Shown: positions 26,880-62,367, counted from the stretch's first letter. The stretch: DNA of 64,000 bases from a virus (IMGVR_UViG_2706796742_000001:1-64000), one strand, 5' to 3'. Notes: generated by a model from the letters alone, not told the origin. Translations and numbers: made by a program.

Positions 26880-26956
26880 CTCTGTTTAGCTCAGCTTGGT
26901 AGAGCGTTCCGTTTGGGGCGGTAAGGCCGGAGGTTCAAGTCCTCCAACAGAGACCA
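26880..26956 (+). tRNA. tRNA-Pro (anticodon TGG)
   Basis: Hand-folded cloverleaf: acceptor CTCTGTT/AACAGAG, T-arm GGAGG-TTCAAGT-CCTCC, anticodon loop TTTGGGG, CCA encoded. Confidence 0.6.
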
Positions 26957-26963
26957 AATTAAT

Positions 26964-27040
26964 GTTCCAGTAGACAAAATGGTATAGTCACCACTCTTTC
27001 AAAGTGGATATTTGAGGGTTCAAATCCCTTCTGGAACGCC
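26964..27040 (+). tRNA. tRNA-Glu (anticodon TTC)
   Basis: Acceptor GTTCCAG/CTGGAAC, anticodon stem CCACT/AGTGG, loop CTTTCAA, T-arm GAGGG-TTCAAAT-CCCTT. Confidence 0.65.
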
Positions 27041-27044
27041 AGTT

Positions 27045-27122
27045 TTGACAGAAGACCAATTACAGCAAACTTAATCTTATACATCTGAAGGTAAATCGGA
27101 CAAAGAAGAGATTTGGTCTGGT
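27045..27122 (+). other. conserved inter-tRNA element E1
   Basis: 5' box CAGAAGACCAATTACAGCAAACTTAA and 3' TTTGGTCTGG able to pair with the 5' AGACCAAA; no T-loop. Confidence 0.5.
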
Positions 27123-27131
27123 CATTAAGAA

Positions 27132-27208
27132 TTGCGGGTATAGAGAAAGGGCGTCTCACATGTCTCATTAGCATGGTATCGGCAGGTTCGACTCCTGCAC
27201 CCGCCTCC
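27132..27208 (+). tRNA. tRNA with CAT anticodon (Met, initiator or Ile-lysidine type); 1-72 mismatch
   Basis: T-arm GCAGG-TTCGACT-CCTGC, anticodon stem CATGT/GCATG, loop CTCATTA; U1-C72 unpaired. Confidence 0.45.
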
Positions 27209-27211
27209 AAT

Positions 27212-27277
27212 TTTGCAGAAGACCGTATGCAGCAATAAACTACTTTTTGCGGATAAAAGAAAAAAACACGGTCTGGC
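27212..27277 (+). other. conserved inter-tRNA element E2
   Basis: CAGAAGACCGTATGCAGCAATAAACT ... CGGTCTGG. Confidence 0.5.
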
Positions 27278-27286
27278 AATGTATTA

Positions 27287-27363
27287 AGGTTAGGAAGCAC
27301 ATAAGGTATGTGCGGTCGCCTGTTAAGCGAATGGCACAGGGTTCGAATCCCTGACTAACCGCC
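27287..27363 (+). tRNA. tRNA-Asn (anticodon GTT)
   Basis: D-stem GCAC/GTGC, anticodon loop CTGTTAA, T-arm CAGGG-TTCGAAT-CCCTG. Confidence 0.65.
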
Positions 27364-27432
27364 AAATTTAGGAGAGAAGCGATTGCTCACCGATTTGTAA
27401 GGTGCAAGTCCTTAGCCTGAATAGAAATTAAA

Positions 27433-27520
27433 TGTGTCGTTATCCCGTAGATGGTAGCGGTGGGGACTGTAAATCCCTTGTCATTGAGACTCGGTAGGTT
27501 CGACTCCTACACGGCACACC
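27433..27520 (+). tRNA. tRNA-Tyr (anticodon GTA), long variable arm
   Basis: 88 nt; acceptor GTGTCGT/ACGGCAC, anticodon loop CTGTAAA, T-arm GTAGG-TTCGACT-CCTAC. Confidence 0.6.
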
Positions 27521-27525
27521 AATAA

Positions 27526-27603
27526 AGGCTATGTAGTTTAATAGGGTTAAAATACTCCCCTGTCACGGGAGATGATGTGAGTTCAAGTCTCATCGTAGCC
27601 GCC
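27526..27603 (+). tRNA. tRNA-Asp (anticodon GTC)
   Basis: Anticodon stem CTCCC/GGGAG, loop CTGTCAC, T-arm GTGAG-TTCAAGT-CTCAT. Confidence 0.6.
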
Positions 27604-27635
27604 AATTTTGAGAGGGCTATTTAGCCCCTCCCTTA

Positions 27636-27668
27636 AAGGGTTCTTACGAGTATCCTTTAAAGGGGCAG
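27636..27668 (+). other. conserved hairpin element, copy 1
   Basis: TTAAAGGGTTCTTACGAGTATCCTTTAA (7-bp stem, 14-nt loop). Confidence 0.45.
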
Positions 27669-27741
27669 AAGACCAAATTCAGCAAGTTACTTAAAATTTC
27701 AAGCCAATTCAATTTTGAAAAAATTTAAAACTTGGTCTGGC
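27662..27741 (+). other. conserved inter-tRNA element E3
   Basis: CAGAAGACCAAATTCAGCAAGTTACTTAA ... TTGGTCTGG. Confidence 0.5.
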
Positions 27742-27750
27742 TCAACAAAT

Positions 27751-27835
27751 TTACAGAAGACCGTTTACAGCAAAACTTAAACAATCTATTTCTCGGTAAA
27801 GAAAAGGCGAAGGTTCGATTCCCTCCACTTCTACC
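27751..27835 (+). other. conserved element E4 with tRNA-like 3' half
   Basis: CAGAAGACCGTTTACAGCAAAACTTAA then GAAGG-TTCGATT-CCCTC T-arm-like hairpin and CCA; only 5 acceptor pairs and no convincing D or anticodon arm. Confidence 0.4.
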
Positions 27836-27839
27836 AATA

Positions 27840-27916
27840 TGGTTCAGTCGCAGATAAGGTAATGCAAGGGTTTCATAAGCCCTATGAATGTGGGTTCGAA
27901 TCCCATCTGAACCTCC
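27840..27916 (+). tRNA. tRNA-Met (anticodon CAT)
   Basis: Acceptor GGTTCAG/CTGAACC, anticodon loop TTCATAA with three G-C pairs in stem, T-arm GTGGG-TTCGAAT-CCCAT. Confidence 0.6.
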
Positions 27917-27918
27917 AA

Positions 27919-27993
27919 TTGTGGGTTAGCATAAATGGTAATGCAAACGGCTGATAACCGTTAGAAGAGGGTTCGATACCCTCACCTACAACC
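27919..27993 (+). tRNA. tRNA-Ile (anticodon GAT)
   Basis: Anticodon stem AACGG/CCGTT, loop CTGATAA, T-arm GAGGG-TTCGATA-CCCTC. Confidence 0.65.
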
Positions 27994-28008
27994 AATTTTA
28001 ATAAAGTT

Positions 28009-28037
28009 GTTGACATTGAGATGTGACCACTTTATAG
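28009..28037 (+). promoter_or_regulatory. strong internal sigma70-like promoter in tRNA cluster
   Basis: TTGACA-N17-TATAGT preceded by A/T-rich tract. Confidence 0.6.
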
Positions 28038-28330
28038 TAACTAAAATACTTCATAATATGTATAATTCAAACACCAATACATGAGCATTAGACGTAATGC
28101 AATGTGGGGAAATTTGTTGTACATATTCTGAATAGTTTTCGTTGCGTAGCGTCTATTTTGCAAATTTAAAATAAATGCAAACGACAATGTTTTTCTGGCA
28201 GTAGCTTGATAGGCTAAACACCAGTGAGGTCTTCCAATCCCTCATCAAAGAATTTGGCGTACTAGCCCACGGTATGATTAATAAGGTGGGCATCTTTAAG
28301 GGCTTTCTAAGAGAGTCTTTAAAGATTAAT

Positions 28331-28407
28331 GCACCCTTAGTTCAACTGGACAGAACAAATGACTTCTAATCATTAGGTTACAGGTTCGAATCCTGTAGGG
28401 TGTGCCA
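28331..28407 (+). tRNA. tRNA-Arg (anticodon TCT)
   Basis: D-stem GTTC/GAAC, anticodon stem AATGA/TCATT, loop CTTCTAA, T-arm ACAGG-TTCGAAT-CCTGT. Confidence 0.7.
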
Positions 28408-28549
28408 AATAGTTAGCAGATTGCTTAGACGACCTTATCGGGTCTCCGTGTAGGGAGGTGGTCTGTATCTCATGTTTTCCAGAACATGTAAATAATCTGA
28501 GAAGGGGCTTTACAGTGTTGTGAAAATACGGTAAGCTTCGAATTATAGT

Positions 28550-28632
28550 GTGGGACGATGTTAAGACTCTAAGGCATGAGCAACGGCCTCCAAAACCGTT
28601 TCAAAGTGGTTCAACTCCTCCGTCCCATGCCA
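28550..28632 (+). tRNA. atypical tRNA-like gene, possibly tRNA-Trp (anticodon CCA) with expanded D region
   Basis: 7-bp acceptor GTGGGAC/GTCCCAT plus CCA; candidate loop CTCCAAA; T-arm weak; D region about 7 nt too long. Confidence 0.3.
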
Positions 28633-28645
28633 AAGTCTTATTAGG

Positions 28646-28733
28646 GGTAGGTAGCGGCTAATGGTAGCCAAACAGTCTTGAAAACTGTTGCCACTGTAGA
28701 GATACGGTGAGGGTTCGACTCCTTTACTTACCG
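28646..28733 (+). tRNA. tRNA-Ser (anticodon TGA), long variable arm
   Basis: Anticodon stem ACAGT/ACTGT, loop CTTGAAA, long variable arm, discriminator G; CCA not fully encoded. Confidence 0.6.
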
Positions 28734-28987
28734 CCTAATAAGATTTAGACCGTCATGCTCGCTCGCATTTTCGGTTTATCCCTCGTGTGTTGTCGTACAC
28801 AAGTAAAGCACCTAGTAGGTGTCACGGAGAAGAGATAATATCAAGCTCTCCAAAGGTTCTAGTCACCGGATTAAACAAGACTATGCAAAGACCTATTTAG
28901 GTCTTTTTAGAGAACTTCTAAGGTTATTACAGCTTGTTGTGGAACCTTGTTGCTTAGGTTCTTAGAAGTTCTCTAAAAAGATTTAAT

Positions 28988-29064
28988 GCACCTATAGCCC
29001 AACTGGTAGAGGCAGCAGACTTAGAATCTGCTCAGTGTGAGTTCGAATCTCTCTAGGTGTACCA
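28988..29064 (+). tRNA. tRNA with anticodon TAG (Leu by code) but short variable loop
   Basis: Leu-like D-arm GCC-CAACTGGTAGA-GGC, anticodon stem GCAGA/TCTGC, loop CTTAGAA, 5-nt variable loop, discriminator A. Confidence 0.45.
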
Positions 29065-29071
29065 AATTAAT

Positions 29072-29147
29072 GCAGGTGTAGCAAAATGGTTATGCGGCTG
29101 ACTCTTAATCAGTAAGACGATGGGTTCAATTCCCTCCACCTGTACCA
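29072..29147 (+). tRNA. tRNA-Lys (anticodon CTT)
   Basis: Anticodon stem GCTGA/TCAGT, loop CTCTTAA; T-arm has two mismatches. Confidence 0.5.
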
Positions 29148-29153
29148 GACATT

Positions 29154-29229
29154 GGGGATGTAGTTTACATGGTTAAAACATAAGTTTTGCAAACTTAAGT
29201 ACAGGGTTCAATTCCCTGCTTCTCCACCA
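29154..29229 (+). tRNA. tRNA-Ala (anticodon TGC)
   Basis: G3-U70 wobble pair in acceptor (Ala identity), D-stem GTTT/AAAC, loop TTTGCAA, T-arm CAGGG-TTCAATT-CCCTG. Confidence 0.7.
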
Positions 29230-29235
29230 ATTAGT

Positions 29236-29310
29236 GCATCCATAGTTTAAACGGGAAAATTACAGTCTTCCAAACTGAGGTTGAGGGTTCGATTCCCTCT
29301 GGATGCTCCA
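29236..29310 (+). tRNA. tRNA-Gly (anticodon TCC)
   Basis: Acceptor GCATCCA/TGGATGC, loop CTTCCAA, T-arm GAGGG-TTCGATT-CCCTC. Confidence 0.6.
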
Positions 29311-29317
29311 AATTAAT

Positions 29318-29394
29318 GCTGCTTTCGTATAATTGGCTATTACACATCCATTGTAAGGATGGAAATGCAGGTTCGAGTCCTGTGAGCAGCACCA
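29318..29394 (+). tRNA. tRNA-Thr (anticodon TGT)
   Basis: Anticodon stem CATCC/GGATG, loop ATTGTAA, T-arm GCAGG-TTCGAGT-CCTGT. Confidence 0.65.
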
Positions 29395-29489
29395 ATTCAG
29401 AGGTCAAGTGAAAGACCGCTGGTGTCAACTGAAGACCGTAACAAATTCCACGGAGTTGAGTTAGCGGCACAACTTCAGACCTCTTTCAC
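29395..29489 (+). other. divergent copy E5 of the inter-tRNA element
   Basis: CTGAAGACCGTAACAAATTCCA; flanking inverted repeat CAGAGGTC ... GACCTCT. Confidence 0.35.
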
Positions 29490-29564
29490 ACTCGCTTAGT
29501 TTATATGGTAAAACATCACCCTTACAAGATGAAGAAAAAGGTTCAAGTCCTTTAGTGAGTACCA
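29490..29564 (+). tRNA. tRNA-Val (anticodon TAC)
   Basis: D-stem GTTT/AAAC, loop CTTACAA, T-arm AAAGG-TTCAAGT-CCTTT; one C-A mismatch in anticodon stem. Confidence 0.55.
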
Positions 29565-29565
29565 T

Positions 29566-29643
29566 GTTCCAGTATCCCAATTGGCAGAGGATGCAAGCTC
29601 AAACCTTGTATTAGTGACGGTTCGAATCCGTCTTGGAACACCA
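29566..29643 (+). tRNA. tRNA with anticodon CAA (Leu by code) but short variable loop
   Basis: Leu-like D-arm TCC-CAATTGGCAGA-GGA, anticodon stem GCAAG/CTTGT, loop CTCAAAC, 6-nt variable loop, T-arm GACGG-TTCGAAT-CCGTC. Confidence 0.45.
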
Positions 29644-29659
29644 ATTTTAGGAGAACACT

Positions 29660-29767
29660 ATGAGTGATAAATCAATTGCAAAAAAGTTTATAGCGTCATT
29701 CAAAAATAGGCGTAAAAACAAAGATTGTGAAAATCTGTATGGTGTTCTTGTAGGTAAGCAGGATTAG
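29660..29767 (+). CDS. possible small basic protein (35 aa) inside the tRNA cluster
   Basis: AGGAG RBS 6 nt before ATG; ORF MSDKSIAKKFIASFKNRRKNKDCENLYGVLVGKQD; 3' end overlaps start of a tRNA. Confidence 0.25.
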   Translation: MSDKSIAKKFIASFKNRRKNKDCENLYGVLVGKQD

Positions 29768-29833
29768 TTCAAATGGATAGAGCAGCAGTCTACGAAGCTG
29801 TTAATAGGGGTTCGAATCCCTTATCCTGCGCCA
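29758..29833 (+). tRNA. tRNA-Arg (anticodon ACG)
   Basis: Acceptor GCAGGAT/ATCCTGC, loop CTACGAA, T-arm AGGGG-TTCGAAT-CCCTT. Confidence 0.65.
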
Positions 29834-29852
29834 ATTTAAAGAGGCTATTTAG

Positions 29853-30410
29853 ATGAGATATTTGAAGTATGCTTCATGGATTTTCCTAGCTTTGCTAGAA
29901 CCATTTGCAGCAATCCTAGCAGTCATCTTAGCACCTTTTGTAGTTCCATTCTACAGTGAGAAGAAAGGGCACTTACCTTTCGGCTTCAGATGGATGGAGA
30001 CATATGACAACCCAATTGATGGTGATAAAGGTCATGTTGAACGATGGGCTAAGATTAGAAAGGTTGGTAAGCTTGGTGTCTATATGCAGAGAGTCGGTTG
30101 GCTCTGGAGAAACAAAGCTTATAACTTCTCTTACCATGTGTTAGGAAGAGATGTAAAAGATGTTACTAAGTGGAAAGGTAATATCAATGTAAGTTCTGAC
30201 CCTGAAGATAATCAGACAGGTTATCTCCTAATGTGGAACAGCAATGCTTGGGGATTATTTGCTTTTGTACCATCAATTAAAGTCTTTGGTAAACAGTTTT
30301 ACTGGAGAATTTATATTGGATGGAAACTTAAAAGTGTTGTCCCAGAAGAAAGAGCATTCTCAAGGGAAAGAGTTATGTTGGCATTCTTTATTCATCCACT
30401 AAGAAAATAA
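29853..30410 (+). CDS. membrane protein embedded in tRNA cluster
   Basis: N-terminal hydrophobic stretch WIFLALLEPFAAILAVILAPFVVPF; RBS agagg; flanked by tRNAs. Confidence 0.5.
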   Translation: MRYLKYASWIFLALLEPFAAILAVILAPFVVPFYSEKKGHLPFGFRWMETYDNPIDGDKGHVERWAKIRKVGKLGVYMQRVGWLWRNKAYNFSYHVLGRDVKDVTKWKGNINVSSDPEDNQTGYLLMWNSNAWGLFAFVPSIKVFGKQFYWRIYIGWKLKSVVPEERAFSRERVMLAFFIHPLRK

Positions 30411-30418
30411 AGATTTAA

Positions 30419-30494
30419 AGGGGATTAGTTTACAAGGTTAAAACCTCGGTCTTTGAAATCGAAGAAGTTGGTTCAATTCCAACATCCCCCGCCA
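30419..30494 (+). tRNA. tRNA-Gln (anticodon TTG)
   Basis: D-stem GTTT/AAAC, loop CTTTGAA, T-arm GTTGG-TTCAATT-CCAAC; unpaired 1-72 position. Confidence 0.6.
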
Positions 30495-30496
30495 AT

Positions 30497-30575
30497 GCTC
30501 CATTACTCCAATTGGCAGAGAGGCCAGACTTAAAATCTGTGTTATGTATCGGTTCGAATCCGATATGGAGTACCA
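30497..30575 (+). tRNA. tRNA with anticodon TAA (Leu by code) but short variable loop
   Basis: Leu-like D-arm CTC-CAATTGGCAGA-GAG, loop CTTAAAA, 7-nt variable loop, T-arm ATCGG-TTCGAAT-CCGAT, discriminator A. Confidence 0.45.
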
Positions 30576-30580
30576 AATTT

Positions 30581-30656
30581 AGCGGTATAGCATAACTGGC
30601 AATGCAGCAGTCTCTGAAGCTGTCTTATTAAGGTTCAAATCCTTATGCCGCTGCCA
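30581..30656 (+). tRNA. tRNA-Gln (anticodon CTG)
   Basis: Anticodon stem GCAGT/GCTGT, loop CTCTGAA, T-arm TAAGG-TTCAAAT-CCTTA, weak A1-U72 pair. Confidence 0.6.
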
Positions 30657-30657
30657 C

Positions 30658-30690
30658 TTCTAAGGGTTCTTACGAGAGTCCTTAAATGTG
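30658..30690 (+). other. conserved hairpin element, copy 2
   Basis: CTAAGGGTTCTTACGAGAGTCCTTAAA, same loop core GGGTTCTTACGAG as copy 1. Confidence 0.45.
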
Positions 30691-30763
30691 GCCTTATCAT
30701 AAATGGTAATGACCCATGCTGTGAACATGGTCTATACGGGTTCAAATCCCGTAGGTCACCCCA
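30688..30763 (+). tRNA. tRNA-His (anticodon GTG)
   Basis: Anticodon stem CCATG/CATGG, loop CTGTGAA, T-arm ACGGG-TTCAAAT-CCCGT, discriminator C. Confidence 0.65.
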
Positions 30764-30768
30764 ATTTA

Positions 30769-30843
30769 TAGTCCAAGTAGCTTATATGGTTAAAGCGCGT
30801 GTCTGAAAAACATGAGAAGAGGGTTCAAATCCCACTGGACTAC
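30769..30843 (+). tRNA. tRNA-Phe (anticodon GAA)
   Basis: Acceptor TAGTCCA/TGGACTA, D-stem GCTT/AAGC, anticodon stem CGTGT/ACATG, loop CTGAAAA; two extra nt before D-stem. Confidence 0.5.
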
Positions 30844-30861
30844 CAATTTCAAAGGTGCTTA

Positions 30862-31596
30862 ATGAAAGAGATGACAGAACAAGGTAAGGAGATTTTTAAT
30901 CTCTTAAAAACCGGTAGAGGGTTTTCTAATCCCCTTATTACTGGTGCAGCAGTTCTCGGTGGAACCGTAGCTGCCTCTACATCACTTGTAAGCTCTATTA
31001 GCTCTGTAACAGACCCTACAATAAAGGATAAGCTTATTGCTGCTGGACTTACAACAGTTCTACTTAGCAGCTTTACAACGAGTCTGACAAGCACTACATC
31101 AACCACTAAAACACTGACAGATTACGGTCAAAAGTCCATTGATGAGTTTTCATCACGTATGCAGGTAGCAAAAGGATATTCTAATGCTATGGGTGCAGCA
31201 GGAGAGCAAGTCGGTTGTACACCTTTTAGTGGTATTATGGGTGTTGCTACAGAATATGGTCAAAAAGCTATTGACACAATTAACAGTGCACTAGATAGTG
31301 TTAACGGTGTGTTAAGTGACTTACAGGATGCTATTGACGAAGGTCTTGATACTATTTCTGATTTAGCTAACCAAGCTGTTAGCAAGATTAATGAAGGTAT
31401 CTCGAAGATTACAGCTTATGCAGACGAAGTTGTGCAGATGATTGAAGAAGAAGCTGCCCTTATTGCAGAGTACCTTAAAACGAATATCAATGGGTTCTTA
31501 GCAGGTATCTTACCAGACTGGTTTGATGATGCTTGTAAAACTGGTGTAATTGACACTATTGCAACACCAGAAATGAAGAACGCATTACAGAAATAA
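30862..31596 (+). CDS. hypothetical Ser/Thr-rich protein
   Basis: Start moved from track ATG 30799 (which overlaps a tRNA) to in-frame ATG at 30862 with aaagg RBS. Confidence 0.45.
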   Translation: MKEMTEQGKEIFNLLKTGRGFSNPLITGAAVLGGTVAASTSLVSSISSVTDPTIKDKLIAAGLTTVLLSSFTTSLTSTTSTTKTLTDYGQKSIDEFSSRMQVAKGYSNAMGAAGEQVGCTPFSGIMGVATEYGQKAIDTINSALDSVNGVLSDLQDAIDEGLDTISDLANQAVSKINEGISKITAYADEVVQMIEEEAALIAEYLKTNINGFLAGILPDWFDDACKTGVIDTIATPEMKNALQK

Positions 31597-31597
31597 T

Positions 31598-31690
31598 GGA
31601 AGATTAACCCTAAAAGGTAAGGGAGCAGTTTGCTAAACTGCCAGTAGCTGAGAAATCGGTGTACCAGTTCAAGTCTGGTATCTTCCTCCA
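31598..31690 (+). tRNA. tRNA-Ser (anticodon GCT), long variable arm
   Basis: 93 nt; acceptor GGAAGAT/ATCTTCC, anticodon stem GCAGT/ACTGC, loop TTGCTAA, T-arm ACCAG-TTCAAGT-CTGGT, CCA encoded. Confidence 0.55.
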
Positions 31691-31694
31691 ATTT

Positions 31695-31770
31695 GAATCC
31701 GTGACAGAAATGGCTATGTGCCTGTCTGCAAAACAGGTTTATAAGGGTTCGAGTCCCTTCGGATTCTCCA
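31695..31770 (+). tRNA. tRNA-Cys (anticodon GCA)
   Basis: Acceptor GAATCCG/CGGATTC, anticodon stem CCTGT/ACAGG, loop CTGCAAA, T-arm AAGGG-TTCGAGT-CCCTT, discriminator T. Confidence 0.65.
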
Positions 31771-43472: not shown

Positions 43473-51506
<8,034 letters not shown>

Positions 51507-58343: not shown

Positions 58344-58673
58344 TTAATCTGCCAACCTTAAATTAAAATTAACACCAAATTTTTCACATACTTCCAACAT
58401 AAACTCAAGAGAGACATTACCAGTGAGGTTGATTATGTTGGATACACGAGCCTGAGAGATACCACAAATTTTAGCAACTTGCTCTTGAGAAAGACCTCTG
58501 GATTTAATCTCTCTCTTAAAACGATGTGCAACGAAATCTCTCATTTCGTCTACATCCATTGGACAAATATAACTTTCCATTTCAGCCTCTCTGTCAGCCT
58601 CCCAATCATCTTGTGGAGCATAAGGGTCAAAAACCTCATTCATCTTTCTTCTTCCGTTTTCGTGAAGTGTCAA
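58344..58673 (-). CDS. XRE-family helix-turn-helix DNA-binding protein
   Basis: HTH segment LSQEQVAKICGISQARVSNI. Confidence 0.55.
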   Translation of the reverse strand: MTLHENGRRKMNEVFDPYAPQDDWEADREAEMESYICPMDVDEMRDFVAHRFKREIKSRGLSQEQVAKICGISQARVSNIINLTGNVSLEFMLEVCEKFGVNFNLRLAD

Positions 58674-58849: not shown

Positions 58850-59233
58850 TCAAATACCTGTGCAGCTTCTGTTTTCTAAGAAATACTCAACACCATACAT
58901 AGCTTTTTGCATCAAATCTTCTTTAAACTGGATGCGATGATTGAGCATAGCTTGTACATCAATATCCTCATGGTGCTTCTCTTTAATGTTTGCAGATTGC
59001 AGGAAATACTCTGCAAGAACGCGATACTGATAGTCAGTTACCTTATCAGTCATCTCTGTTAAAGACTCTTCAGAGATTGGTTTAAGCAACTCACCATTAG
59101 ATATAGCAACACCTTTTACAATCTGGCAAGTGTCTTCTGGAACACCTGACAAGTCCACATTTGGGAGTTCTGTTGCATTGACTGGTAAATTCATTGCCAT
59201 AACCATTGCAGCAGCTAATAAAATCTTTTTCAT
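58850..59233 (-). CDS. secreted/periplasmic protein
   Basis: Signal peptide MKKILLAAAMVMAMNLPVNA; repeat-rich leader upstream. Confidence 0.45.
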   Translation of the reverse strand: MKKILLAAAMVMAMNLPVNATELPNVDLSGVPEDTCQIVKGVAISNGELLKPISEESLTEMTDKVTDYQYRVLAEYFLQSANIKEKHHEDIDVQAMLNHRIQFKEDLMQKAMYGVEYFLENRSCTGI

Positions 59234-59349
59234 AATGACCTCAAAGTTATATTAAATTTTGTATTACGTTGAGTATAAAAATAAGCTATAACACCTGACT
59301 TGTCAACAGATTTTATAGCTTATTTGGCAGATTTTTTATAAGGCTACTG

Positions 59350-59606
59350 CCATCCTTCCATACCATACTAAACCCGACCTTACCTCACCTTACCTAACCT
59401 TACCCCAACCTATCCTACCAGACCAAACCTTATTAAAAGACCCTGTTTAAAGACCTTTTAAAAAGGTAAGTCTCATTTTAATGTAGCTGAGACTAACTAC
59501 CCGCACCGAACCTAACCGGACCCGACCTGACATAACCGGACCTAGCCTTGCATTGCCGTACATCACTTAAAAATCCTCTTAGAAGACTCTTAAGTGATGC
59601 TGGTGA
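59350..59606. repeat. intergenic region with tandem ACCTTACC-type repeats and two inverted repeats
   Basis: GACCTTACCTCACCTTACCTAACCTTACCCCAACCTATCCTACCAGACC; CCGAACCTAACCGGACCCGACCTGACATAACCGGACC; inverted repeats GTCTCA...TGAGAC and CATCACTTAA...TTAAGTGATG. Confidence 0.6.
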
Positions 59607-59663
59607 GTACCCGTTGGTTTATGCTGCTCAGTATACTCACCAAATTTTCTATGTCAACAACTT

Positions 59664-60764
59664 TTATTCATAATCCCTAATAACTAACCCAACAGGGAAC
59701 TGTAAAGAACCCTTACGAGTCATCTTCTGGAACTGAACCGTTAAAGGTTTCCCGATAAACTCTTCAGGATGCTCAGCAAGATACTGTTTCTTCTCATGGG
59801 TAGTCTTCCATGAGACATCCACAAAGACGTTAGGAAGAGTCTCTACAACGAACTTGCCATGACCACGTTTATCGGTCTTTACACCAGTAACTTTAAACTC
59901 TTCAGTGTGCATCTTCTTGTGCTTAATCAAGAAGTATGAACGGTGACAACACTCATAGAAGGAGTCTTCAGAGATTGAGCGGTACATTGCACCTTCAAAC
60001 TGAGCTTCAACCCACTTATCATGGGCTTCATCAAACTCTTCCCAAGAATTTACACGACGAGACTTAACAGGGACAACTTTACAGCCGTCTCTGAAGTCAT
60101 TCAATGGTGAAGTCTCAATAATATCTCTACGCTCAGGCCACGTCATAGTACTGTCACAGATATCGTACCAGTAGAACTGGAGTAGATGTCGGTCTGGATT
60201 GTCAGCATTCTTAATCATAGACACAATATCTTCTAAGTCCCAACCATGAGCATAAATCTCACCATCAAAGTCTTCGACTTGTGGATGTAATTTAAGCAAC
60301 AAAAGCAAATCTGGGATTAGTTCTGCTGGGACGTTGTAAATAGTATTCTCACGAGAATAAGCCGTGAAGCTAACTAAATCAGCGTCTCTTGAAATTCTAC
60401 AACGAACACCATCAAGCTTCGGTTGAGCATCAGCAGGGAACTTCAGATACTTTGCATGGCTAACCTTTGCAGCATCATGAGCAAGCTGTACACCTACCTT
60501 CTCAGTATTCTGTGCAGACTCTTTTGTGTAAGCATAACCTTTACGGTCAACTTGCTTTTTATACTTAGCAGCAACTTCAAAGAGAGCTTGCTGTTCAGCG
60601 TTACGCTCATTCTTTTTACCGATGTTCTTAGGCTCTGCTGTATACTCTTCAAACATCATCTTGCCATTCTCTTTACCGTAGGTTGTAATAACTTTGTCAC
60701 CTACAGCAACACATGACCAGACGTTGAAAGAGCCGTCTTTATTTTGTTTGTACAGAATTGTCAT
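59664..60764 (-). CDS. ATP-dependent DNA ligase
   Basis: Adenylation motif KLDGVRC (KxDG); 366 aa. Confidence 0.7.
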   Translation of the reverse strand: MTILYKQNKDGSFNVWSCVAVGDKVITTYGKENGKMMFEEYTAEPKNIGKKNERNAEQQALFEVAAKYKKQVDRKGYAYTKESAQNTEKVGVQLAHDAAKVSHAKYLKFPADAQPKLDGVRCRISRDADLVSFTAYSRENTIYNVPAELIPDLLLLLKLHPQVEDFDGEIYAHGWDLEDIVSMIKNADNPDRHLLQFYWYDICDSTMTWPERRDIIETSPLNDFRDGCKVVPVKSRRVNSWEEFDEAHDKWVEAQFEGAMYRSISEDSFYECCHRSYFLIKHKKMHTEEFKVTGVKTDKRGHGKFVVETLPNVFVDVSWKTTHEKKQYLAEHPEEFIGKPLTVQFQKMTRKGSLQFPVGLVIRDYE

Positions 60765-60958
60765 TTTTTAACCTCTGAGTGATACCAAGTGTAACAAGCA
60801 TTACATGCGTAAAGCTCTAAGTCATTTTTATCTGGTTTATGGAAACAGTTTGACCCACAACGACACCGGAATAGCTTACCATCAACACGAAGAATGAATG
60901 TTTCAAGCTCACCATCTTCTGTAAGAACTGCGTTCTTAAATTTATCTTCTACAGTCAT
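60761..60958 (-). CDS. small zinc-finger protein
   Basis: CRCGSNC...CNAC Cys pairs. Confidence 0.4.
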   Translation of the reverse strand: MTVEDKFKNAVLTEDGELETFILRVDGKLFRCRCGSNCFHKPDKNDLELYACNACYTWYHSEVKK

Positions 60959-61161
60959 TTTCTCTTACCACCAATCTCTACGTCGATAACCTGAACATCA
61001 CCAGCAACATCGAACTTATGGATGATGCTTTCCACAGTGTAAGTCCAACCCTCGATTCGAACTAACTCACCTTCTCGTGGGACGATTGGGTTACGTTGAG
61101 CTACGGTTGTAGTGGAGTGAACAACATCATAACAGTGGATATAGTTTACTAGGACTTCCAT
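60955..61161 (-). CDS. hypothetical protein
   Basis: 68-aa ORF. Confidence 0.4.
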   Translation of the reverse strand: MEVLVNYIHCYDVVHSTTTVAQRNPIVPREGELVRIEGWTYTVESIIHKFDVAGDVQVIDVEIGGKRK

Positions 61162-61851: not shown

Positions 61852-62367
61852 TCAAGATAGTTTTGCAAACTCTCCGTGGAGTTTTATAGCAGCTTCACAG
61901 TAAGCTTTATGGGCTTCTTCTTCTGTTGTGTACGTCCCGATATGTATAGTCTTACCATTATGGTTAATCTGGGCTTTCCACTTACCAGACTTACTTCTAC
62001 TTGTACCTTTTAAGTTTTTTGATGTTCTAGGTTGCCTCCTATTAGACATGTTCTGTTCTTTTGTGGCCTCTCTAAGATTGTCCCAAGCATTATTCAAACC
62101 GTTCCCGTCTTTGTGGTCAATATGATTGTCAGGCCACTTACCTGTCATCCAGAACCAAGCAATTCGGTGATTGCCTGTCCTGTATCCTAAAATCTGGGTT
62201 TGCATATACACACCAGACCTTGTGCGCTTGATTGTACCAGCCTGTCTTCCAATTACCACCCTACTGCTATGTGGAGGTCTGCCAATCCAAGTCAAGACCC
62301 CTGTTTCGGGGTCGTAGTCTAACCAAGATTTTAACTGTTCATGTGTGAATCCACAATCTCTCATCAA
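61852..62367 (-). mobile_element. free-standing HNH homing endonuclease with AP2-like DNA-binding domain
   Basis: HNH motif HIDHKDGNGLNNAWDNL; C-terminal AP2-like GKWKAQINHNGKTIHIGTYTTEEEAHKAY; start overlaps polymerase stop by 4 nt. Confidence 0.65.

What the first reader, a model, noticed from the sequence alone, without database searches (positions are those of the whole stretch)
59350..59606. ACCTTACC-type tandem repeat field and inverted repeats in the ligase-proximal intergenic region
A 430-bp gap between the DNA ligase gene and a secreted-protein gene contains tandem degenerate octamers (ACCTTACC, ACCTAACC, CCGAACC, CCGGACC) that are strongly C/A-biased on the plus strand, so G-rich GGTAAGGT runs on the minus (coding) strand. 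It also has two inverted repeats (GTCTCA...TGAGAC and CATCACTTAA...TTAAGTGATG). This could be a regulatory region, a replication-associated site near the replication genes, or a G-rich structured leader.
Basis: seen in the sequence. Interest (0 to 1): 0.5.

Follow-up and report, generated by a model that had tools for sequence, protein, structure and literature searches.

The report
Orphan VIPR guide-RNA genes (vrRNAs)
The "ACCTTACC repeat field" is two genes on the minus strand for VIPR guide RNAs (GGY/NN five-base repeats plus a pseudoknot tail), a phage RNA-guided DNA-targeting system first described in a June 2026 preprint, but this Felix O1-like phage lacks the Vipr protein that would use them.

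Summary
The 430-bp gap between the ligase gene and the 127-aa gene holds two arrays of (Y-N-N-G-G)n on the minus, gene-sense strand. Each array ends in a conserved H-type pseudoknot. A consensus sigma-70 promoter and a 19-bp hairpin lie upstream.

This matches the vrRNAs of type II VIPR systems (bioRxiv 10.64898/2026.04.26.720920). The model phage there, SUSP1, carries them at this same ligase-proximal locus with identical tails.

Under the published rule (NN dinucleotides read with a 1-nt skip), both window guides hit a ~12-kb phage satellite found in E. coli chromosomes. Guide 1 matches 10 consecutive units perfectly. Guide 2 matches 23 of 28 positions across the ribosome-binding site and start codon of a satellite gene. 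None of 500 shuffles reached either score, and the window contains no self-target.

The two protein genes, vipr (195 aa) and vap (146 aa), sit between the arrays in 20 of 32 related loci. They are absent from the window and from the complete genome of the closest relative. So these are orphan guides. They are most likely left over from a deletion between the repeated tail/leader modules, and could work only if Vipr is supplied in trans. The kind of element is known; the orphan state is modestly new.

The parts
59630..59657 (-). Promoter P1: TTGACA, 16-nt spacer, TATACT, immediately after the ligase stop codon. Presumed start of vrRNA transcription.
   Evidence: Matches 11 of 12 consensus positions. 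Conserved in all related loci, including those without arrays. Activity was not tested.
59601..59642 (.). Perfect 9-nt inverted repeat TGGTGAGTA ... TACTCACCA straddling the P1 -10 box and the predicted start site. Possibly an operator.
   Evidence: Pair I12 (arms 59601-59609 and 59634-59642). Conserved in relatives. Function is inferred only.
59561..59599 (-). Hairpin hp1 (CATCACTTAAGAGTCTTCTAAGAGGATTTTTAAGTGATG), directly 5' of the vrRNA-1 repeats. Probably a processing or spacer hairpin between vrRNAs.
   Evidence: 19-nt arms. It folds as a long stem in the minimum-energy structure. It precedes repeat tracts and follows tails in multi-vrRNA loci and is present in SUSP1. The processing role is inferred.
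59501..59560 (-). vrRNA-1 repeat tract: 12 YNNGG units (TACGG CAATG CAAGG CTAGG TCCGG TTATG TCAGG TCGGG TCCGG TTAGG TTCGG TGCGG). Guide dinucleotides: AC AA AA TA CC TA CA CG CC TA TC GC.
   Evidence: Coordinates. The phase-locked unit profile is D-G-Y-N-N, and tract lengths are multiples of 5 in 25 homologous arrays. The first 10 guide units match satellite L235 8192-8226(-) perfectly under the 1-nt-skip rule.
59470..59500 (-). vrRNA-1 3' tail: H-type pseudoknot GUAG-UUA-GUCUCA-G-CUAC-AUUAAAA-UGAGAC, followed by UUACC and a U-run (59455-59469) that could terminate transcription.
   Evidence: 10 sequence variants in 52 instances, with no broken pairs. Three S2 positions show compensatory double changes, including a G.U pair that forms only on the minus strand. 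Identical to tails in the SUSP1 locus. The paper reports a pseudoknot tail.
59428..59469 (-). Leader of vrRNA-2 (TTACCTTTTTAAAAGGTCTTTAAACAGGGTCTTTTAATAAGG), including the palindrome ACCTTTTTAAAAGGT.
   Evidence: Conserved upstream of every 'sB'-type array and unique within the window. Whether it is a promoter or a processing signal is unknown.
59358..59427 (-). vrRNA-2 repeat tract: 14 units (TTTGG TCTGG TAGGA TAGGT TGGGG TAAGG TTAGG TAAGG TGAGG TAAGG TCGGG TTTAG TATGG TATGG). One 4+6-nt irregular pair and one GG-to-GA change relative to BPSELC-1.
   Evidence: Coordinates. Matches 23 of 28 NN positions at satellite L234 8615-8655(+), covering the Shine-Dalgarno sequence and ATG of a 236-aa gene. 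The single difference from BPSELC-1 in this tract is at 59413.
59325..59357 (-). vrRNA-2 3' tail: second pseudoknot type, AAGG-A-UGGCAG-UAG-CCUU-AUAAAAAAU-CUGCCA.
   Evidence: 7 variants in 48 instances. S1 covaries (AAGG/CCUU to GUGG/CCAC, two double changes) and S2 shows C-G to U-A. One non-pair in total. Present as the last tail of the SUSP1 locus.
59278..59325 (-). 19-nt inverted repeat enclosing the -35 box of promoter P2 (TTGACA, 17-nt spacer, TATTTT) and followed by a T-run. Probably the terminator of the vrRNA unit combined with the promoter of the 127-aa gene.
   Evidence: Pair I1. Promoter scan matches 10 of 12 positions. Identical in relatives. Function is inferred.

Best explanation
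The region encodes two VIPR guide RNAs (vrRNAs) on the minus strand.

Each vrRNA has two parts. The first is a tract of 12-14 pentanucleotide units, Y-N-N-G-G. The second is an invariant 3' pseudoknot tail of about 31-33 nt.

How such RNAs work was shown for phage SUSP1 by others. The small RAMP-family protein Vipr binds the conserved GGY and tail parts. The NN dinucleotides pair with double-stranded DNA, skipping one target base per unit. The bound complex blocks transcription.

Here the NN code of both RNAs points to one transcription unit of a ~12-kb phage satellite in E. coli chromosomes. vrRNA-1 binds about 50 nt upstream of a consensus promoter. vrRNA-2 binds across the ribosome-binding site and start codon of the first gene, which is 236 aa.

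This phage carries no vipr or vap gene, so the guides are orphans. My inference is that the two protein genes, and any vrRNAs between them, were lost by homologous recombination between the repeated tail/leader modules that flank them in relatives. What is left is promoter P1, hp1, vrRNA-1, the leader, vrRNA-2 and promoter P2. The remnant is recent enough that promoter, repeats, tails and guide-target matches are still intact. The RNAs are probably still made, but on their own they do nothing. They could act only if a co-infecting relative supplied Vipr.
For: Shown here:
- Unit profile from 303 units phased by their flanks, not by the motif: position 1 is G 79%, T 14%, A 8%, C 0%; position 2 is G 98%; position 3 is T 86%, C 14%; the two spacer bases are unconstrained.
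- Of the 27 distinct arrays lying between hp1 and a type-A tail, 25 have lengths that are multiples of 5 nt (9-18 units), and 83 of 100 array sequences are unique although the flanks are near-invariant.
- Both tails form pseudoknots supported by compensatory changes. They are identical to those at the SUSP1 locus.
- SUSP1 (L139) has 1 array upstream and 3 downstream of a 195-aa and a 146-aa gene, exactly as the paper describes for vrRNA1-vipr-vap-vrRNA2-4.
- Positive control for the 1-nt-skip rule: guides from relatives hit one satellite at 80-96% NN match, all inside the island. With 0-, 2- or 3-nt skips no guide exceeded 80%, and the mean best match stayed at about 67%.
- Window guide 1 scores 20/20 over 10 units and 21/24 overall. 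Guide 2 scores 23/28. None of 500 unit-order shuffles reaches either score.
- The window contains no self-target (best 17/24).
- vipr and vap are absent by tblastn from the window and from the whole 86,996-bp genome of BPSELC-1. BPSELC-1 is 98% identical over the 501-bp query around the locus, differs at 4 of the 430 intergenic bases, and is 94-97% identical across most of the window.
- A profile HMM of 118 Vipr relatives also finds nothing (best E >= 0.8), while its positive control scores E = 6e-85.
- The left part of the window element matches the region upstream of vipr in relatives, and the right part matches the region downstream of vap.

From the paper (bioRxiv 10.64898/2026.04.26.720920): definition of vrRNAs, Vipr binding, the 1-nt-skip code, satellite targets and transcriptional repression.
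Against: - About 23 kb of this genome lies outside the window. Absence of vipr there is inferred from BPSELC-1 only.
- A non-homologous Vipr type cannot be excluded by sequence alone, because the paper found Viprs by structure.
- No expression data exist for this phage.
- Orphan guides match satellites as well as guides from Vipr-positive phages do (mean best NN match 0.83 in both groups). BPS17W1, of the same species, carries a different second guide. Both facts fit maintained function as well as they fit recent loss.
- vrRNA-2 has an irregular 4+6 unit pair and a GG-to-GA change. Its target match (82%) is just above the paper's 80% cut-off.
- At the guide-1 site the skipped base is not a codon wobble position.
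Confidence: 0.85

Rival explanations
1. The orphan vrRNAs are kept because they work in trans. Either they are loaded by the near-identical Vipr of co-infecting Felix O1-like phages, giving free use of a rival's effector against a shared satellite. Or they act as decoys that soak up a rival's Vipr, an RNA anti-VIPR analogous to RNA anti-CRISPRs.
For: - Vipr is 97-100% identical across the clade, and the window tails are identical to SUSP1 tails, so they should be compatible.
- Promoter, tails and about 80% GGY integrity are preserved in the window arrays.
- Orphan guides match satellites as well as guides of Vipr-positive phages do.
- Orphan loci within one species differ in their second guide (window against L150), which suggests continued turnover.
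- At least 24 public phage records carry the tail without Vipr (142 against 118).
- The paper notes that some satellites carry their own vrRNAs directed at closely related satellites.
Against: - Several orphan arrays are clearly decaying, with GGY fractions of 0.36-0.5 in L145, L148, L149 and L151.
- Orphans are concentrated in Salmonella phages (29 with the tail against 17 with Vipr) while Escherichia phages nearly all keep Vipr (78 against 77).
- The window guides fit E. coli satellites better than the seven sampled Salmonella satellites. That pattern is expected for a relic carried into a new host range.
- There is no direct evidence of trans loading.
Confidence: 0.2
2. The system is complete. 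A Vipr protein is encoded in the ~23 kb of this genome outside the window, or by a protein too divergent for sequence methods to detect.
For: Vipr families are very divergent and were originally found by structure. Only 64 kb of about 87 kb is visible.
Against: - The complete genome of BPSELC-1 has no hit by tblastn or by a 118-member profile HMM.
- In all 20 Vipr-positive relatives the gene sits between the arrays, never elsewhere.
- Tails identical to SUSP1's imply a SUSP1-type Vipr, which would be easy to detect.
Confidence: 0.06
3. The first reader's ideas, plus those I raised before finding the paper. (a) A replication origin or R-loop-forming region. (b) Cis-regulatory DNA. (c) A G-quadruplex leader. 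(d) An RNA with triplet-plus-2-nt-spacer sites for a ring-shaped, TRAP-like protein.
For: - The region lies among replication genes.
- A strong promoter is followed by a G-rich non-template strand.
- The GGY + NN pattern formally resembles the (G/U)AG + 2-nt repeats bound by TRAP (my own knowledge).
- GG-N3-GG could form two-tier G-quadruplexes.
Against: - The element is absent from some relatives and varies from 0 to 5 copies.
- The NN positions are not random filler. Read with a 1-nt skip they spell sequences found in a satellite, which none of these models predicts.
- The third position is always a pyrimidine, which a G-quadruplex does not require.
- A published mechanism accounts for every feature.
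Confidence: 0.03

Closest known systems
Type II VIPR system of Escherichia phage SUSP1 (vrRNA1-vipr-vap1-vrRNA2-4); bioRxiv 10.64898/2026.04.26.720920
   Same: - Same phage subfamily (Ounavirinae) and same genomic position, downstream of the DNA ligase gene.
- Same YNNGG/GGY-NN repeat tracts, 12-14 units here against the published 9-16.
- Identical pseudoknot tails and identical 5' hairpin.
- Same target class, a Felix O1-type satellite, under the same 1-nt-skip code, with no self-targeting.
   Different: - No vipr gene and no vap gene.
- Only two vrRNAs, fused into a single 430-bp intergenic region.
- The host lineage is probably Salmonella rather than E. coli.
- The guide-1 target is not in wobble register with a coding frame.
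Orphan CRISPR arrays and CRISPR crRNAs
   Same: Guide-RNA genes with a variable targeting part and a constant protein-binding handle. They occur without their effector genes in some genomes. The effector (Vipr) is a RAMP relative of Cas5/6/7, according to the paper.
   Different: - There is no repeat-spacer architecture.
- The specificity is spread over dinucleotides inside 5-nt repeats and read discontinuously.
- No acquisition machinery is known.
- No PAM is needed.
RNA anti-CRISPRs (Racr; solitary repeat units carried by phages). I cite this from memory; it was not checked here.
   Same: A mobile element carries the RNA component of a system without the effector. This is the model for the decoy reading of orphan vrRNAs.
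   Different: No evidence here that the RNAs inhibit anything. They carry full-length guides with real targets, not bare handles.
TRAP-binding (G/U)AG repeats in the Bacillus trp leader
   Same: A conserved triplet plus a 2-nt variable spacer, about 11 units, single-stranded RNA wrapped by a protein oligomer.
   Different: The triplet is different (GGY). The spacers carry information. The protein family and hosts are different. The function is DNA targeting rather than attenuation.

Membership tests
VIPR vrRNA (type II, SUSP1 clade) | 9-16 tandem YNNGG units with GGY conserved and NN hypervariable | tested here: met
   The window has 12 and 14 units. The flank-anchored profile is D-G-Y-N-N over 303 units. 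Tract lengths are multiples of 5. 83 of 100 arrays are unique.
VIPR vrRNA (type II, SUSP1 clade) | Invariant 3' tail of about 40 nt folding into a conserved structure with a pseudoknot | tested here: met
   Two tail types share one H-type topology and show compensatory changes. There is 1 non-pair in 17 variants. Both are identical to tails in the SUSP1 locus.
VIPR vrRNA (type II, SUSP1 clade) | NN dinucleotides match natural DNA targets with exactly one skipped base per unit, and there is no self-target | tested here: met
   Guide 1 scores 20/20 over 10 units (21/24 overall). Guide 2 scores 23/28. Both targets are in E. coli satellites. None of 500 shuffles reaches these scores, and skips of 0, 2 or 3 nt stay at background. 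The best match within the window is 17/24.
VIPR vrRNA (type II, SUSP1 clade) | Expressed as a small RNA of about 100 nt that co-purifies with Vipr | not testable with these tools
   Only a consensus promoter and the predicted lengths of about 91 and 103 nt support this. There are no RNA data for this phage.
Complete VIPR system | A vipr gene (small RAMP-family protein of about 20 kDa) in the locus | tested here: not met
   No hit in the window or in the whole BPSELC-1 genome by tblastn or by a profile HMM of 118 relatives. The gene is present between the arrays in 20 of 32 related loci.
Complete VIPR system | A vap accessory gene next to vipr | tested here: not met
   The 146-aa Vap1 is absent from the window and from BPSELC-1.
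CRISPR array | Direct repeats of 23-50 nt separated by unique spacers of similar length | tested here: not met
   The repeat unit is 5 nt and there is no repeat-spacer pattern.
   The element is missing in L137, L138 and L141 and varies from 0 to 5 copies. Its variable positions encode satellite sequences. Origin activity itself cannot be tested here.
TRAP-type triplet-repeat RNA site | (G/U)AG triplets separated by 2-3 nt | tested here: not met
   The triplet is D-G-Y, and the third position is never a purine.

The most novel reading that the evidence does not exclude
Orphan vrRNAs in Vipr-less Felix O1-like phages are a maintained strategy rather than debris. Either they hijack the near-identical Vipr of co-infecting relatives to silence a shared satellite, or they act as RNA decoys that titrate a rival's Vipr. 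The decoy version would be the first 'anti-VIPR'.
Probability: 0.2. Interest if true: 0.7.

Novelty: new member of a known kind. Interest (0 to 1): 0.45.

Why it matters
VIPR is a newly described form of RNA-guided DNA recognition, with a discontinuous code and a proposed link to the ancestry of CRISPR. This window shows three things.

1. vrRNA genes can be recognised from raw sequence alone, by a 5-nt GGY periodicity together with a pseudoknot tail.
2. They occur without their effector in part of the Felix O1-like phages. At least 24 public records carry the tail without Vipr, most of them Salmonella phages. The protein-centred discovery pipeline of the original paper could not have found this class.
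3. Such orphan guides still spell out recognisable satellite targets. They therefore record the lineage's past, or its trans-acting, conflicts.

It also gives a concrete case for testing whether vrRNAs can be shared or used as weapons between co-infecting phages.

Tried and rejected
- Rfam at gathering thresholds and ARAGORN found nothing in the region, only the tRNA cluster at 26.9-31.8 kb.
- Before finding the paper I considered a TRAP-like triplet-repeat RNA, a CsrA or Hfq sponge, Shine-Dalgarno-like standby sites, pairing with tRNA CCA ends, a Rho rut site on the antisense strand, T7-type primase sites, an R-loop origin, two-tier G-quadruplexes, a boxA/nut-like antiterminator (UCUUUAA motifs in the leader) and Ig-switch-like recombination repeats. 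None of them predicts that the NN positions encode satellite sequences. All were dropped.
- The Felix O1 genome paper does not mention the element.
It returned many unrelated contigs with degenerate GGY-NN arrays, consistent with other VIPR types, and also plain microsatellites.
- Exact-pattern scans for targets failed or were uninformative. The 10-unit guide-1 pattern found nothing in IMG/VR or in the GTDB representative genomes. The 8-unit AT-rich guide-2 pattern gave 77 matches that look like chance.
- The second genome scan, using the baseplate protein, found only one Shigella locus, with no target.
- In seven Salmonella satellites guide 1 reached only 18/24 and guide 2 stayed at background.
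- Pfam finds no family for Vipr, Vap or the neighbouring small proteins, apart from a helix-turn-helix domain in the 109-aa protein.
- The leader and hp1 motifs are not repeated elsewhere in the window, so they are not a general phage promoter motif.
- No supplementary files of the paper were available for checking whether orphan loci are listed.

Full report
**1. What is in the sequence**

The window comes from a Felix O1-like phage (Felixounavirus). Its best match is Salmonella phage BPSELC-1, at 98% identity over the 501-bp query around the locus. It carries 25 tRNA genes.

All genes around the finding are on the minus strand: the DNA ligase gene at 59664-60764 and a 127-aa gene with a signal-peptide-like start at 58850-59233. 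They leave a 430-bp gap.

- 'CC' autocorrelation peaks at lags 5, 10 and 15.
- Tandem Repeats Finder reports periods 5 and 10.
- 9 of 11 in-phase units carry CC in two blocks. The maximum elsewhere in the 64 kb is 4.
- None of 2000 shuffles reaches 9.

Read on the minus strand, the gap contains the following, in order:

| Feature | Window coordinates |
|---|---|
| Promoter P1 (TTGACA, 16 nt, TATACT) | 59657-59630 |
| 19-bp hairpin hp1 | 59599-59561 |
| 12 units of Y-N-N-G-G (vrRNA-1 repeats) | 59560-59501 |
| Structured tail 1 | 59500-59470 |
| Conserved leader | 59469-59428 |
| 14 further units (vrRNA-2 repeats) | 59427-59358 |
| Structured tail 2 | 59357-59325 |
| Inverted repeat enclosing promoter P2 of the 127-aa gene | 59325-59278 |

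**2. Comparative anatomy**

I compared 32 related loci: the window, BPSELC-1, VpaE1_ev035, AYO145A and 28 IMG/VR contigs, oriented through the ligase gene.
- The number of arrays ranges from 0 to 5, and they are always on the gene strand.
- Arrays bounded by the conserved flanks gave 100 instances, of which 83 are unique sequences.
- Between hp1 and a type-A tail, 25 of the 27 distinct arrays have lengths that are multiples of 5 nt, 9-18 units.
- In 303 units phased by the flanks rather than by the motif, the profile is: position 1 G .79, T .14, A .08, C 0; position 2 G .98; position 3 T .86, C .14; then two unconstrained bases.

So selection keeps GGY and the register, while the NN positions turn over quickly.

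Three relatives (L137, L138, L141) lack the element altogether, and P1 runs directly into the homologue of the 127-aa gene. In 20 loci, two genes of 195 aa and 146 aa lie between an upstream and a downstream group of arrays.

**3. Identification**

A scan of IMG/VR for (GGTNN)x6 showed that degenerate arrays of this kind occur in many unrelated viral contigs, usually several per locus. In loci with at least two arrays, the nearest flanking ORFs lie on the array strand in 38 of 50 cases.

[quoted passage not shown] It describes VIPR systems, which consist of:
- Vipr, a RAMP-family protein of about 20 kDa;
- Vap, an accessory protein;
- vrRNAs of about 100 nt, made of 9-16 YNNGG repeats with GGY conserved and NN hypervariable, plus an invariant 3' tail that forms a pseudoknot in the SUSP1 clade.

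According to the paper, the NN dinucleotides pair with double-stranded DNA while skipping one target base per unit, and binding represses transcription. Natural targets of the SUSP1 clade are a satellite phage in E. coli genomes.

The model phage SUSP1 is one of my loci (L139). It has one array, then the 195-aa gene, then the 146-aa gene, then three arrays. That is the published layout vrRNA1-vipr-vap1-vrRNA2-4. The window's hp1 and both its tails occur verbatim in the SUSP1 locus.

**4. Tests on the window's two RNAs**

*Tails.* Both fold as H-type pseudoknots with a 4-bp stem S1, a 6-bp stem S2 and an A-rich third loop.
- Type A is GUAG-UUA-GUCUCA-G-CUAC-AUUAAAA-UGAGAC. Across 10 variants, compensatory double changes occur at three S2 positions. 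One variant has a G.U pair that can form only on the minus strand.
- Type B is AAGG-A-UGGCAG-UAG-CCUU-AUAAAAAAU-CUGCCA. S1 covaries (AAGG/CCUU to GUGG/CCAC) and S2 shows C-G to U-A.
- There is a single non-pair in 17 variants.

*Targets.* The window's Dit-like baseplate gene led me to the satellite. It is an island of about 12 kb encoding a serine recombinase, a Dam methylase, a tape-measure protein and a baseplate protein. It is present in 474 of 5426 complete E. coli genomes.

As a positive control, guides from relatives hit one satellite at 80-96% NN match under the 1-nt-skip rule. All hits lie inside the island. With skips of 0, 2 or 3 nt no guide exceeded 80%, and the mean best match stayed at about 67%.

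- Window guide 1 (AC AA AA TA CC TA CA CG CC TA TC GC) matches 10 consecutive units perfectly at L235 8192-8226(-), 21/24 overall. It matches 9 units in L231 and L233.
- Window guide 2 matches 23 of 28 positions at L234 8615-8655(+), across the Shine-Dalgarno sequence and ATG of a 236-aa gene.
- None of 500 unit-order shuffles reaches either score.
- The mismatch pattern, a perfect core with the last 1-2 units before the tail unmatched, is the same as for guides of Vipr-positive phages.

Both sites belong to one satellite transcription unit. Guide 1 lies about 50 nt upstream of a TTGACA-17-CATAAT promoter, and guide 2 lies at the start of the first gene. The window contains no self-target.

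**5. The effector is missing**

Vipr and Vap give no tblastn hit in the window, and none in the complete 86,996-bp genome of BPSELC-1. That genome also has only these two arrays. A profile HMM built from 118 Vipr relatives (37-99% identity) finds the positive control at E = 6e-85 and nothing better than E = 0.8 in either genome.

The left part of the window element (P1, hp1, array, tail A, leader) corresponds to the region upstream of vipr in relatives. The right part (array, tail B, P2) corresponds to the end of the region downstream of vap. A deletion between the repeated tail/leader modules would produce this arrangement.

Among public phage records, the tail-plus-leader sequence occurs in 142, while a Vipr of at least 90% identity occurs in 118. 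The excess lies in Salmonella phages (29 against 17), not in Escherichia phages (78 against 77).

Evidence on whether the orphans are decaying is mixed.
- Several orphan arrays are degenerate, with GGY fractions of 0.36-0.5. The window's two arrays are at about 0.8, which is typical of arrays linked to Vipr.
- Orphan guides match satellites as well as guides linked to Vipr do.
- Satellite-type baseplate proteins also occur in Salmonella enterica. In seven Salmonella satellites, however, guide 1 reaches only 18/24 at the homologous site and guide 2 stays at background.

**6. Interpretation**

*Shown here:* the sequence features, their conservation pattern, the pseudoknot covariation, the guide-target matches and the absence of vipr and vap.

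*Taken from the paper:* what vrRNAs do and how.

*Inferred:* that the RNAs are transcribed from P1, that hp1 is a processing hairpin, that the T-runs after tail 1 and after the P2 inverted repeat terminate transcription, and that the orphan state arose by deletion.

I consider a recent relic the most likely reading. About one chance in five goes to maintained use in trans or as a decoy. A hidden Vipr or any non-VIPR function is unlikely.

**7. Verdict**

The element belongs to a kind described in mid-2026. The orphan state is a modest addition. It is worth recording because protein-first searches cannot see it.

Noticed in passing
window 45718-46515 (+): The first ~540 nt of the Dit-like baseplate gene are 92-94% identical at the DNA level to the baseplate gene of a ~12-kb chromosomal satellite. 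The satellite is present in 474 of 5426 complete E. coli genomes. Homologues of 256-258 aa also occur in Salmonella enterica, Shigella and E. albertii. This points to recent gene exchange between the phage lineage and its satellite.
   Followed up: partly
window 46199 (+), inside the baseplate gene: [quoted passage not shown] This phage may therefore be collateral, or a real target, of a relative's VIPR.
   Followed up: no
related loci L124-L147, L002, L003: Vipr and Vap are 97-100% identical across phages whose ligase proteins are only 87-94% identical to the window's. The guides next to them are almost all different. This suggests the protein cassette spread or swept recently.
   Followed up: no
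window 59601-59642 and 59279-59325: A perfect 9-nt inverted repeat brackets the -10 box and start site of P1. A 19-nt inverted repeat encloses the -35 box of P2 and is followed by a T-run. These could be operators or a combined terminator and promoter. A 109-aa helix-turn-helix protein is encoded about 600 bp downstream, at 58344-58673.
   Followed up: no
satellite loci L235 8480-8720 and L234 8380-8600: The satellite intergenic region between the two guide targets carries motifs resembling the phage's vrRNA leader and hp1 (for example CTTTAAGAGTTTTTAAACAGAGCTTTTAAAG and TTAAGTCATCTTCTAAGTG). These may be a shared regulatory signal or remnants of satellite vrRNA loci. None of the six E. coli satellites examined (L231-L236) has an array or a Vipr.
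   Followed up: partly
satellite L235 8183-8260: The guide-1 target lies in an unannotated 25-codon hydrophobic ORF that overlaps the stop codon of the upstream gene. In that frame the skipped base falls on codon position 1, not on the wobble position reported as typical.
   Followed up: no
IMG/VR loci L039 2200-3420, L025 3320-5330, L048 2088-2619, L027, L036, L091, L097: Unrelated viral contigs carry very large clusters of degenerate GGY-NN arrays, up to 12 or more in 1.2-2 kb. Each array is bounded by locus-specific conserved flanks, and some run right up to a start codon. They are probably other VIPR types with different array architectures.
   Followed up: partly
window 60750-60999 and 62000-62250: Against BPSELC-1 these two stretches fall to 80% and 50% identity, while the neighbouring DNA is 93-99% identical. 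The first covers a small 65-aa ORF. The second reaches the end of the aligned segment, so part of its drop may be an alignment artefact. In BPSELC-1 the DNA polymerase is annotated as two CDSs separated by 230 bp.
   Followed up: no
window 26880-31770 (+): A cluster of 25 tRNA genes, interspersed with small ORFs, on the strand opposite to the replication genes.
   Followed up: no
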